Assembly (NCBI RefSeq): GCF_006345805.1
Contig: NC_043001.1
Span: 77,314,001 to 77,378,000 of the forward strand
Direction: 5' to 3'
DNA length: 64,000 nucleotides
DNA from: Octopus sinensis
Lineage: Eukaryota
The notes beneath the pieces were generated by a model. It made no database searches, had not been told where the DNA came from, and saw nothing but the letters and a program-made list of their open reading frames with translations. The first letter of the stretch is position 1; every line of letters begins with the position of its first letter. The position numbers and the translations under genes were made by a program. Positions 8,925 to 51,915 of the stretch are shown here, piece by piece.

Positions 8925-9523
8925 AAAGCAAAATCAAACATCCAATCAGCATCATGGTGTTTGGAGTGATTGGTAGCGATGGCGACGTTATGCCTCCATT
9001 CATCTTCCCACACGGCCTCAAAATCAACACGAGACCTACATAAAGGGTCTGGAGCAAGTAGTACTGCCCTGGGTGAAGAGGGTTGCTGCTGGAAAAAATG
9101 TATGTCTAGCAACAGGACCCTGCATCATACCACACGAGCAGCAGAACTCAGTTATAGCTGTTGTCAGACAATTTCTGTACCACATCACCCCTAACATCTG
9201 GCCACCTAACTCCCCAGACTGCAACCCCCTTTATTACGTGTGGGGTGCATTTGTGCGAGAGACCAACAAAACTCCTTGTAACACCAAAGATGAACTGAAG
9301 GCAAAGATTATGGCAGCATTCACCAACTTAAAAAGGGAAACCACCCAGAAGAGTTGTAGGAGATTCTGAAGTCATCTGGAGATCGTGGTTGAAGCCATTG
9401 GCAATTTCATTGGATAAATTTACTCTTTAGTATGTAATTTTGCTTGGTATATCTATTAAAATAAGATGTCAGTGTTATTTTTATTTTTGCGTAATTTAGA
9501 CAATTTAATCATCGTTCACTGTG
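8925..9523 (+). mobile_element. Tc1/mariner DD37D (maT-like) 3' half
   Basis: KHPISIMVFGVI, PFIFPHGL, QQD ... WPPNSPDCNPL. Same family as 61822-63187. Confidence 0.85.
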
Positions 9524-10886: not shown

Positions 10887-11731
10887 TCGACAAGGGAAGT
10901 GGCAGAGAAAATGGAATGCTCTCACACTGCTATAGAGAAGCATCTTCACTCGATAGGAGAGGTTCAGAAGTATACAGTATGGGTTCCGCATGCTTTAAGT
11001 GACAACAACAAAAATCAATGAGCCACAATCTCCGCTGGTTTGCTTGCTCGTCACCGCTCAACTCATGGTCACAAGCAACGATTTCTTTACCGAATTGTTA
11101 CTGGCGACGAAAAATGATGCCTGTACATCAATATGAAGCAGCGTAAGGAATGGCTTAGCCCCGGTAAACAAGCGACACCGCGAGTGAAACATGATCTTCA
11201 TCCACGTAAAACGATGTTGCGCGTATAGTGAGACTGGGAAGGAATTATCCATTACGAATTGCTTCAACGGAACCAAACGGTCAACGCGGAAGTCCATGTT
11301 CGACAGATGGAACGACTCAACACGGCTATTCAAGAGAAAAGACTTAACTCTCAGCATGGGGTTCTTCTGCTGCACGACAACGCCCGCCCTTATATCGCCA
11401 ATATGATCAAGGAAGCCATTGAAACGCATGGCTGGGAAGTGCTGCCACGCCCGCCGTACTCTCCTGATATAGCACCAACGGATTTCCACCTCTTACGATC
11501 TCTTTCAAATGATATGCGTGGAGTTTCGTTCATTACTGATGCAGAATTGAGAGCTTGGTTGGATCAATTTTTCGAGTGAAAATCGAGGAATTGAAAATTT
11601 TGTTAAACGTTAGGAAGAAGTTATAAACAAGAGTGAATACATTATTGATTAATTAATTGTTAGTTTTTATTAAACCTTTTAAAAAATTGAAATAAAAAAA
11701 AAACGGCGGTAACTTAGTTGCCAACTCAATA
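10887..11731 (+). mobile_element. mariner (DD34D) element, 5'-truncated pseudogene
   Basis: WVPHAL, IVTGDEK, HDNARP, YSPDIAPTDFHL motifs and right TIR AAAACGGCGGTAACTTAGTTGCCAACTCAATA. Confidence 0.92.
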
Positions 11732-50130: not shown

Positions 50131-50514
50131 AAGTAGAGAGAAAGGGAGAGTGTGAGAAGGAGATATTTAGAGAGGAGTATTGACCTCGTACTTTATTCGT
50201 ACTATACAGGGTGTCCCAGAATATTTTTTTAAAAATCGGACAAATTAAAAAAAAAAAGACTGACAGAGTATATAATTGCGACACCGAAACAAATAGATTT
50301 ATAAAGCATACGGGAAAAATCTTTAGAAAATGTTCAGCATGTGCTCCATCTGTATCCCTGCAATTTTCAAATCTATCTTTAGCGTTGCGAAACACACTTT
50401 GAAGCATTTCGGAAGCTATTCCCTGCACTGCTAACAGAATGCATTCTTTGAGTTCATTTAAACTATTCCTCCATCCCCCGGATGGAGGTAGAGAAAATAA
50501 TTACAGCCAAATTG

Positions 50515-50632
50515 AAAATAGTAGCGGGATCCAAAAGGAATAAAAATAGTAGCTGGATCCAAAAGGAATAAAAATAGTAGCTGGATCCAAAAGGAATAAA
50601 AATAGTAGCTGGATCCAAAAGGAATAAAAATA
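50515..50632. repeat. 28-bp minisatellite x4
   Basis: AAAATAGTAGCTGGATCCAAAAGGAATA. Confidence 0.95.
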
Positions 50633-50809
50633 AAATTATAAAAAATGTATAAAAATTATAAAAATTATAAACAAAATAAAAAATTTATACACTTTTAAAC
50701 ATGATAAACATAAATAAAAGTAAACAATTGCAGCGTGGAAGGTGTTTATAAGCCATTTAAGAAACACACAAACAAAAGCTGTTCGATTCACTTCAACATT
50801 TAAGTTTAA

Positions 50810-50859
50810 TTTGTCAAAATATTTTCGTCGCTAAGATCCGCGACCTGTTCACTGACAAA
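50810..50859 (-). ncRNA. Minimal type I hammerhead, G3:C8 variant
   Basis: Reverse-complement copy of the 50898 motif. Confidence 0.7.
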
Positions 50860-50897
50860 AATCCGTACTGCATCTGAGCTCAGATGCTGCACGGATT

Positions 50898-50947
50898 TTT
50901 GTCAGTGAACAGGTCGCAGATTTTAGCGACGAAAATATTTTGACAAA
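50898..50947 (+). ncRNA. Minimal type I hammerhead, G3:C8 variant
   Basis: TTTGTCA-GTGAACA-G-GTCGC(agatttta)GCGAC-GAAA-ATAT-TT-TGACAAA. Confidence 0.7.
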
Positions 50948-51520
50948 TTAAACTTAAATGTTGAAGTGAATCGAACGGCTTTTGTGTGTTTCTTAAATGG
51001 CTTACAAACACCTTCCACGCTGCAATTGTTTTCGTTTCAGCACACGATCTCAGATCAAGTCACTTGCTATGCGAGTACATCTCCGTAATAAATAAAAGTG
51101 AGTCTTTAAAAAAAATTGTCCGAAATAGATAGTTAATTTTGGGACACTGTATTTATCGACTTCGGTAGCGTAAAGGGTAAAGTATACTTTGGCGAGATTT
51201 TCAGTCGAGTGTAGGGAGTACAAAGGAACGTAGTAAGCCATTTAATCCGAAACATACGATTCTTGCAACTTGTTTCATACACAAACATGAGCGAACACTC
51301 TCATATGCATATATATCACATATGTACATACATTCATGTGTGTATGTATGTATATTTATATATATATATACATATACATGCATATATGTATATATGTGTA
51401 TGTTTATGTGCCTATGTACATTGATACCTATATGTGCATATATTTATATGTGTGTGTATCTATGTGTATATGCATTTATGCGTATGTGCATTTATGTGTA
51501 TTTGCATTTATGTATATATA

Positions 51521-51915
51521 CAGGAGTGGCTGTGTGGTAAGTAGCTTGCTAACCAACCACATGGTTCCGGGTTCAGTCCCACTGCGTGGCATCTTGGGCA
51601 AGTGTCTTCTGCTATAGCTCCGGGCCGACCAATGCCTTGTAAGTGGATTTGGTAGACGGAAACTGAAAGAGCCTGTCGTATATATGTATATATATATGTA
51701 TGTGTGTGTGTTTGTGTGTCTGTGTTTGTCCCTCTAGCATTGCTTGACAACCGATGCTGGTGTTTTTACGTCCCCGTCACCTAGCGGTTCGGAAAAAAGA
51801 GACCGATAGAATAACTACTGGGCTTACAAAGAATAAGTCCCGGGGTTGATTTGCTCGACTAAAGACGATGTTCCAGCATGACCGCAGTCAAATTACTGAA
51901 ACAAGTAAAATAAAA
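51521..51915 (+). mobile_element. SINE A, full-length
   Basis: GGAGTGGCTGTGTGGTAAG, GGTTCAGTCCC, internal microsatellite and A-rich tail. Confidence 0.92.

What the first reader, a model, noticed from the sequence alone, without database searches (positions are those of the whole stretch)
50722..51090. Spacerless 310-bp palindrome carrying a G3:C8-swapped hammerhead on each strand
Seen: a near-perfect palindrome with a ~55-nt unpaired tail on the right. Each arm holds a 7-bp stem I (TTTGTCA/TGACAAA), core GUGAACA, a 5-bp stem II, GAAA and a palindromic AAUAUU stem-III stub. Established: the hammerhead core CUGANGA needs a tertiary C3-G8 pair that tolerates a compensatory swap, and PLE minimal HHRs use palindromic stem III to act as dimers. 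Here positions 3 and 8 are both swapped, which argues for selection rather than decay, and a CUGANGA search would miss it. Inference: transcription from either strand gives a rod-like RNA with one sense ribozyme masked by its antisense copy, which could act as a self-inhibiting ribozyme or a dsRNA/siRNA source.
Basis: partly seen in the sequence, partly recalled or inferred. Interest (0 to 1): 0.85.

Follow-up and report, generated by a model that had tools for sequence, protein, structure and literature searches.

The report
Penelope footprint with swapped-core hammerhead
The palindrome is one of thousands of ordinary two-armed insertion scars left by a Penelope-like jumping gene, but the hammerhead RNA it carries has a fixed G3:C8 swap in its core, and related elements use all four base pairs at that spot, so it is likely a real, probably weak, natural ribozyme variant whose cutting is untested.

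Summary
The palindrome is the standard inverted-plus-tail insertion of a Penelope-like element (PLE). It sits between 12-bp target duplications, and empty sites exist in paralogs. The family has at least 7,751 arms and autonomous RT+GIY-YIG copies, and the tail is the start of the ORF. All 32 tight palindromes examined pair one tail-less arm with one tailed arm.

The hammerhead fold is real. G3:C8 is fixed across subfamilies while loop II changes. The sister family has C3:G8 with compensatory stem changes. Metagenome relatives add U3:A8 and A3:U8, so all four pairs occur in one clade. I found no natural G3:C8 in print, but key papers were unavailable.

Cleavage is unproven. Copy 5' ends cluster upstream of the ribozyme, not at the cut site, and a G3·U17 wobble is predicted to trap the core. 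A selected self-inhibiting or siRNA role for this locus is unsupported. New variant of a known kind; interest 0.45.

The parts
50710..50721 (+). Left target-site duplication (12 bp)
   Evidence: Same 12-mer at 51088-51099; present once, with no insertion, in 8 of 9 paralogous host-element ends and in variant form in the ninth (L249-L257)
50722..50878 (-). Inverted, tail-less arm: PLE pLTR positions ~1-153, ending at the first of two fixed 3' ends
50810..50859 (-). Minus-strand hammerhead copy (G3 at 50852, U17 at 50817)
50879..51031 (+). Sense arm, PLE pLTR positions 1-153
50898..50947 (+). Minimal type I hammerhead: stem I 50898-904/50941-947, G3 50905, C8 50910, A9 50911, extra G 50912, stem II 50913-17/50926-30, stem III stub 50934-39, predicted cut after U17 50940
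50997..51089 (+). First 31 codons of the PLE ORF (ATG 56 nt after the predicted cut); continues in frame into the RT ORF in 5'-intact copies
   Evidence: L321, L326, L337
51032..51089 (+). PLE 'tail': ORF sequence between the two fixed 3' ends (likely two internal RT start sites)
   Evidence: Bimodal 3' ends, 40 vs 57 of 97 arms; model from PMC11167929
51088..51099 (+). Right target-site duplication
50204..51152 (-). Older host repeat into which the PLE inserted; likely a Tc1/mariner-type remnant (TIR-like ends, transposase-like C-terminal frame 50261-50500, internal 28-bp tandem repeat 50515-50632)
   Evidence: the mariner label is recalled from motifs, Pfam gave no hit

Best explanation
This is a 5'-truncated, two-armed insertion of a young, high-copy Penelope-like retrotransposon, likely made when both nicked target strands primed reverse transcription at two internal sites of the element RNA, and each arm carries the element's minimal hammerhead, whose G3:C8 core is fixed in the family and is predicted to cut only weakly, as a dimer or with protein help. 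SHOWN: family membership, ORF link, target duplication, two fixed 3' ends, one tailed plus one tail-less arm per palindrome, G3:C8 fixation, covariation across relatives. INFERRED: staggered nicks about 12 bp apart; both cDNAs run to an RNA 5' end about 5-25 nt upstream of the core and join head to head; the ribozyme fold, including the tertiary 3:8 pair, is under selection in source elements; cleavage occurs but in a minority of transcripts (about 0.6). This copy itself is likely inert.
For: Family: 7,751 exact hits to a 28-mer and 1,588 to the young-subfamily ribozyme pattern, control 0. Autonomous copies: 793-1042 aa open frames ending in GIY-YIG (Pfam E 4.6e-5, over the cut-off), followed about 1 kb later by this sequence; 5'-intact L321 runs from the ATG through the tail into the ORF. 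Geometry: 3' ends 146-158 in 40 and 197-206 in 57 of 97 arms; 32 of 32 tight inverted pairs have one of each; 13 of 32 show a clear 9-16 bp duplication, 17 lie in (TA)n-type flanks, 2 show none. This matches the published PLE form (PMC8557442) and in vitro extension of both strands from two internal sites (PMC11167929). Ribozyme: G3 in 100 of 100 and C8 in 97 of 100 listed hits; no C3:G8 copy among 19 non-G3 hits. Subfamily-diagnostic changes hit 0 of 42 stem/core positions versus 4 of 8 loop II positions (p 0.0003). Sister family B (55% aa identity, SH-aLRT 97) has C3:G8 with compensatory changes in stems I, II and III. With positions 3 and 8 free, 9 of 15 PLE 3' regions gave a sense hit, 0 antisense, and 8 of 9 are Watson-Crick: CG x3, UA x3, AU x1, GC x1. 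The 3:8 pair holds in 9 of 9 aligned rows with 4 pair types. The C3G/G8C double mutant partly rescues a PLE hammerhead in vitro.
Against: No cleavage data. 71 of 97 family A arms keep the uncut core; only 2 start at the cut site, against 2.2 expected by chance, and both have stem-I microhomology. Family B is similar (2 of 47 within 5 nt of the cut). A G3·U17 wobble extending stem I is predicted at p about 0.6 and competes with G3:C8. Family B thrives with A9C in 86 of 100 listed copies, so the core tolerates departures. Against flanking non-ribozyme sequence the conservation test is weak (0/42 vs 10/136, p 0.12). The descriptor was written after seeing families A and B and two relaxed scans; only 13 of 78 metagenome loci reached the ORF end, 6 of those 13 gave no hit, A3:U8 rests on one sequence, and one remote hit is A3·G8. 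The tree is a quick tree. Arm 5' ends near positions 18-21 are blurred by a polymorphic site.
Confidence: 0.85

Rival explanations
1. The hammerhead fold is kept by selection as a structure (for example a protein-binding or RNA 5'-end element) but no longer cleaves in this family. The insertion mechanism is as in the best explanation.
For: No enrichment of copy 5' ends at the cut site; predicted G3·U17 trap; A9C fixed in most of family B; ribozyme mutants did not affect PLE insertion in vitro and no reads ended at the cut site in the anole element (PMC11167929); G3·G8 copies include 3 of 4 ORF-linked copies that keep upstream UTR.
Against: The 3:8 pair belongs to the active fold (established knowledge) and is kept through all four pairings. 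U4, G5, A6, G12-A14, A15.1-U16.1, H17 and the palindromic stem III are also kept.
Confidence: 0.3
2. One reading: this palindrome is maintained as a functional self-inhibiting ribozyme or dsRNA/siRNA source.
For: Either strand folds into a rod of about 150 bp that masks both ribozymes. The insertion is shared by 3 other runs under three organism codes. Thousands of such palindromes could feed small-RNA silencing in bulk.
Against: The palindrome form is a by-product seen at 30 of 63 sampled sites and is published for PLEs. The arms have diverged by 3.9% in substitutions plus an indel, within the family range (0.7-14%). The centre position varies from site to site. No gene was identified around it among 59 window frames scanned.
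Confidence: 0.07
3. A fold-back DNA element or MITE, or a hairpin made by later rearrangement of one copy.
For: It lies inside a repeat with TIR-like ends.
Against: The host repeat has empty sites. The arms end at two fixed, different points in 32 of 32 pairs. The sequence is the pLTR and ORF start of an RT element.
Confidence: 0.02
4. Assembly or fold-back read artefact, or a chance hammerhead look-alike.
For: Palindromes are artefact-prone; no listed contig bridged the centre.
Against: The arms differ; there is a target duplication; the right junction is in 3 runs; shuffles give 0.005 hits per set.
Confidence: 0.01

Closest known systems
Minimal type I hammerheads of Penelope-like elements (Cervera & De la Pena 2014, PMC4209133)
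   Same: In the pLTR on the sense strand; extra nucleotide between 9 and 10.1; G10.1-C11.1; short palindromic stem III needing a dimer; hundreds to thousands of truncated genomic copies, some on opposite strands; natural U3-A8 covariation.
   Different: Core pair is G3:C8. None of the 56 representatives in their Fig. S3 has G3 or A3 (53 C3, 3 U3). The extra base is G (their consensus is H; 1 of 56 has G). All four 3:8 pairs occur in this one clade.
Inverted 5'-truncated plus tail insertions of EN+ PLEs (Craig 2021, PMC8557442; Frangieh 2024, PMC11167929)
   Same: Inverted copy at the 5' end, tail at one end only, tail equals ORF sequence between two RT start sites, AT-rich/(TA)n targets, uncut RNA as template.
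   Different: Tail about 58 nt (published 30-40). ATG is 56 nt downstream of the cut, whereas in the anole element the cut is 26 nt inside the ORF. Most copies stop within about 25 nt upstream of the core, giving short palindromes.
C3G/G8C laboratory double mutant (PMC11167929; PMC3884650)
   Same: Same swap; partly active in a PLE hammerhead in vitro.
   Different: Here it is natural and fixed. Position 17 is U in 84 of 84 arms; PMC3884650 notes G3-C8 works better with G17 than C17 (data not shown there).
Non-LTR retrozymes (PMC7229834; bioRxiv 10.64898/2026.07.22.740005)
   Same: Short, non-coding, type I hammerhead, PLE-related, high copy.
   Different: Retrozymes are head-to-tail tandems with canonical ribozymes and circular RNAs. 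These copies are dispersed head-to-head fragments of an autonomous element.

Membership tests
Penelope-like element (C-terminal EN+) | Single ORF with RT and C-terminal GIY-YIG endonuclease linked to this sequence | tested here: met
   GIY-YIG over the Pfam cut-off; RVT_1 only weak (6 of 32 homologs), YVDD motif seen
Penelope-like element (C-terminal EN+) | pLTR present both after the ORF and, in tandem, before it | tested here: met
   after the ORF: L036-L058; before it: L321, L326, L337
Penelope-like element (C-terminal EN+) | Inverted 5'-truncated copy and tail at one end | tested here: met
   32 of 32 pairs
Penelope-like element (C-terminal EN+) | Clade (Neptune, Nematis or Hydra) | tested here: inconclusive
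   RWR and DKS motifs resemble Hydra's RWK/DKT, while the CX3CxxC linker and apparent CCHH resemble Neptune (motif placing recalled); no reference sequences on hand, supplement unreadable
Minimal type I hammerhead | Stems I and II around the core, G10.1-C11.1, GAAA, A15.1-U16.1, H17 | tested here: met
Minimal type I hammerhead | CUGANGA sequence (C3, G8) | tested here: not met
   G3 and C8; no Rfam hammerhead hit
Minimal type I hammerhead | Watson-Crick pair between positions 3 and 8 | tested here: met
   8 of 9 relatives, 4 pair types; 9 of 9 aligned rows
Minimal type I hammerhead | Extra nucleotide between 9 and 10.1; palindromic stem III | tested here: met
   hallmark per PMC4209133
Minimal type I hammerhead | Site-specific self-cleavage after H17 | not testable with these tools
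   only contigs, no raw RNA reads, were offered; genomic 5' ends show no peak at the site
Non-LTR retrozyme | Head-to-tail tandem units, each with a ribozyme | tested here: not met
   dispersed single arms and head-to-head pairs; a few short partial tandems exist (L337, L339)
Hairpin-RNA / endo-siRNA locus | Transcription through both arms and small-RNA production | not testable with these tools
   no stranded or small-RNA reads available

The most novel reading that the evidence does not exclude
A marine PLE clade with a G inserted after A9 has freed the hammerhead 3:8 pair to take all four Watson-Crick states. In this family G3:C8 plus a competing G3·U17 pair tunes cleavage down, so transcripts split into a cut pool (5' end 56 nt before the ATG, translated) and an uncut pool (template). 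The thousands of palindromes are then a genome-scale record of twin internal priming on one uncut RNA and of its 5' end.
Probability: 0.2. Interest if true: 0.72.

Novelty: new variant of a known kind. Interest (0 to 1): 0.45.

Why it matters
If it cuts, this is a natural, fixed, multi-thousand-copy instance of a hammerhead core known to me only as a laboratory double mutant. With A3:U8 and U3:A8 in relatives, it completes natural four-way covariation of the tertiary 3:8 pair and shows that CUGANGA- and Rfam-based surveys undercount genomic hammerheads. The sister pair of families (G3:C8 versus C3:G8, with and without A9C) is a ready test set for the open question of what PLE hammerheads do. 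The 32-of-32 pairing of tailed and tail-less arms with ~12-bp duplications supports, in vivo, the internal-initiation model shown in vitro for one element. The palindrome itself is ordinary.

Tried and rejected
Rfam scans: no hammerhead hit on the motif. The whole-window scan listed only its best 150 of 441 rows, mostly microRNA models on microsatellites. An RF00163 search of G000 gave 7 hits whose sequences I could not inspect.

First idea, that the palindrome was part of the surrounding mariner-like element: rejected by empty paralogous sites. The 50698-to-51088 joint is read as such a paralog, not an empty allele, because the flank contig does not branch.

Idea that G3·G8 copies are an ancestral intermediate lineage: not supported. 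They lie on several subfamily backgrounds and mostly in one arm of a pair (output partly cut); enrichment among long copies was borderline (p 0.05).

Peak of 5' ends at the cut site: none in either family. A refined 5'-end map was not obtained.

Run X5 (RNA by guess only) covers the repeat body but not the unique flanks; an uncovered part is no evidence, and contigs show neither strand nor ends.

Search for further octopus families of this clade with a distant homolog: by coordinates the top hits were mostly copies already found as families A and B; the loci were not inspected. PDB search gave only weak bacterial RT hits. Pfam on 59 of 187 window frames found two DDE remnants and one sub-threshold hit, no clear host gene.

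Not seen: Lunse 2017 and Przybilski & Hammann 2007 (not held), the Craig 2021 supplement with its list of PLE hammerheads, and Arkhipova 2017 (not among the search results). Any of these could already hold a natural G3:C8.

Full report
OBSERVATION. The palindrome is real: arms 50722-50878 and 50879-~51031, no spacer, 92.6% identical including a 4-nt indel, then a ~58-nt tail. Stems I and II are the predicted fold of each arm alone (z -2.9, -2.5). Rfam does not call it a hammerhead.

IT IS A PLE INSERTION. The right arm plus tail has 1,507 candidate matches in G000 (40 scored, 97-100% identical). An exact 28-mer occurs 7,751 times and the young-subfamily ribozyme pattern 1,588 times, control 0. 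[quoted passage not shown] In such copies the ORF is followed by about 1 kb of UTR and then this sequence. In 5'-intact copies the ATG at window 50997 runs in frame through the tail into the ORF (L321, L326, L337). A close homolog of the sister family is a named Octopus vulgaris protein (P0001), so the genome is likely an octopus. The insertion is flanked by a 12-bp duplication (50710-21, 51088-99); paralogs of the host repeat carry that site once, empty. The tail-to-flank junction lies in single contigs of runs X2, X4 and X6.

GEOMETRY. I fetched the first 63 sites on contig C1 from the 100 hits listed (97 arms, a few from duplicated loci). 3' ends are bimodal: 146-158 in 40 arms and 197-206 in 57. 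All 32 tight inverted pairs (31 in the sample plus this one) join a tail-less and a tailed arm; 13 show a clear 9-16 bp duplication, 17 lie in (TA)n-type flanks and 2 show none. The two arms nearly always share subfamily markers. Craig 2021 describes the inverted-plus-tail form as typical of PLEs (PMC8557442; passages and section 11 seen). Frangieh 2024 showed that a PLE protein cleaves and extends both target strands and starts at two internal ORF sites that bound the tail (PMC11167929; parts 1-2 of 4 read). My inference is twin priming: nicks ~12 bp apart, one cDNA from each start site, both running to the RNA 5' end and joining head to head.

THE RIBOZYME IS A REAL HOMOLOG UNDER STRUCTURAL SELECTION. 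G3 is in 100 of 100 and C8 in 97 of 100 listed hits. Genome-wide, among copies fitting the patterns, 19 lack G3 (all keep C8, none is C3:G8) and 54 lack C8. G3:C8 holds in old and young subfamilies. Positions with a common second allele number 0 of 42 in stems and core, 4 of 8 in loop II (p 0.0003) and 10 of 136 downstream (p 0.12). A sister family B (55% aa identity; SH-aLRT 97 in a quick tree; 2,866 hits) has at the same place C3:G8, the same extra G, and compensatory changes in stems I, II and III. Of 78 metagenome loci, 13 reached the ORF end. With families A and B that makes 15 regions. A descriptor free at 3, 7, 8, 9 and the extra base hit 9 on the sense strand, 0 antisense, 0.005 per shuffled set: C-G in L071, L075 and family B, U-A in L070, L078 and L079, A-U in L073, G-C in family A, and one unpaired A·G in remote L128. 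All eight paired cases have the extra G. On a 9-row alignment (L128 left out, two family A rows, L070 misaligned by one column in its 3' half) 82.9% of cells pair against 52% shuffled and 26-47% slid; the 3:8 pair holds in 9 of 9 rows with four types. The descriptor was not blind and these shuffles ignore relatedness.

DOES IT CUT? Unknown. For: every other catalytic nucleotide is kept, and the double swap partly rescues a PLE hammerhead in vitro. Against: 61 of 97 arms end at positions 0-21, upstream of the core, 10 extend further, and only 2 of the other 26 start at the cut site (2.2 expected). Family B shows the same pattern (12 of 47 ends 36-62 nt upstream of C3, 2 within 5 nt of the cut). 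Copies that run from there into the ORF also begin just upstream of an uncut core, which suggests an RNA 5' end there. A G3·U17 wobble is predicted at about 0.6. Family B carries A9C in 86 of 100 listed copies. These facts show that templates are uncut; they do not show the ribozyme is dead, since cut RNA may be used otherwise or not be integrated. I put weak, dimer- or protein-assisted cleavage at about 0.6.

A read-through RNA would be a rod of -250 to -256 kcal/mol masking both ribozymes. But the form is a by-product found at about half of the sites, its centre varies, the arms drift, and no data tie transcription to this locus. A selected role here is unlikely (0.07); bulk small-RNA production from the family's palindromes is untested.

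COMPARISON WITH PRINT. Cervera & De la Pena 2014 (PMC4209133; parts 1-2 of 4 and supplement parts 1-2 of 3 read) report the extra nucleotide, the palindromic stem III, low dimer activity and natural U3-A8; none of their 56 representatives has G3 or A3. Perreault 2011 (PMC3088659; passages and section 8) reports U3-A8 only. PMC3884650 (passages) mentions G3-C8 as a laboratory variant. Passages or first parts of PMC2920678, PMC10085705, PMC6765202, PMC7229834, PMC13725137 and the 2026 retrozyme preprint held no natural G3:C8. Searches found none. Lunse 2017, Przybilski 2007, Arkhipova 2017 and the Craig supplement were not seen and may bear on novelty. Unchecked notes of this scan report G3-C8 plus an extra base in PLEs of other genomes, so the swap may recur; I did not test them.

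UNEXPLAINED. Among copies lacking C8, G is in excess: G28, T19, A7, and G42, T44, A14 in the first 100 of 158 older-loop hits, against G14, T36, A10 and G0, T13, A4 at two control cytidines (hand counts; p 0.002 and 6e-5). These copies are not one lineage. A local mutation bias is the plain reading.

VERDICT. An ordinary PLE insertion footprint carrying a well-supported natural G3:C8 hammerhead variant, within a clade that shows all four 3:8 pairs. New variant of a known kind; interest 0.45.

Noticed in passing
G000 family A copies; L326, L328-L331, L337, L345, L354, L365: C8-to-G changes exceed expectation, recur on several subfamily backgrounds, and occur in 3 of 4 independent ORF-linked copies that keep upstream UTR. 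Mutation hot spot or template bias, unexplained.
   Followed up: partly
Family B, e.g. L062, L310-L319: Sister PLE family (2,866 hits) whose major subfamily has C9 in place of the conserved A9, whose stem III stub has internal A·A mismatches, and whose position 17 is C or U.
   Followed up: partly
L073:2810-2845: Hammerhead with an A3:U8 pair behind a PLE ORF in a metagenome contig; single sequence, weak stem I.
   Followed up: partly
L159, L162, L166: A few palindromes have arms from different loop II subfamilies, suggesting two source RNAs or two pLTR copies in one insertion.
   Followed up: no
L211, L225: Inversion junctions that use the 7-nt self-complementarity of stem I as microhomology, with one arm starting exactly at the predicted cut site.
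   Followed up: partly
L335, L336, L337, L339 (contigs C30, C12295): Arrays of ~400-bp partial tandems and multiple inversions of the pLTR plus ORF start, retrozyme-like in layout.
   Followed up: no
window 50204-51152: Older mariner-like host repeat with a 28-bp tandem repeat (50515-50632, 4.2 copies); 31 paralogous ends at 76-89% identity.
   Followed up: partly
window 8977-9366 and 11232-11576: DDE transposase remnants (Pfam DDE_3, Transposase_1).
   Followed up: no
window ~51520-51910: SINE-like repeat also seen in flanks of other loci such as L037 (label recalled).
   Followed up: no
L052 and L395-L401: Canonical CUGAUGA hammerhead-like motif near a family A copy and 7 Rfam Hammerhead_1 hits elsewhere in G000.
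   Followed up: no
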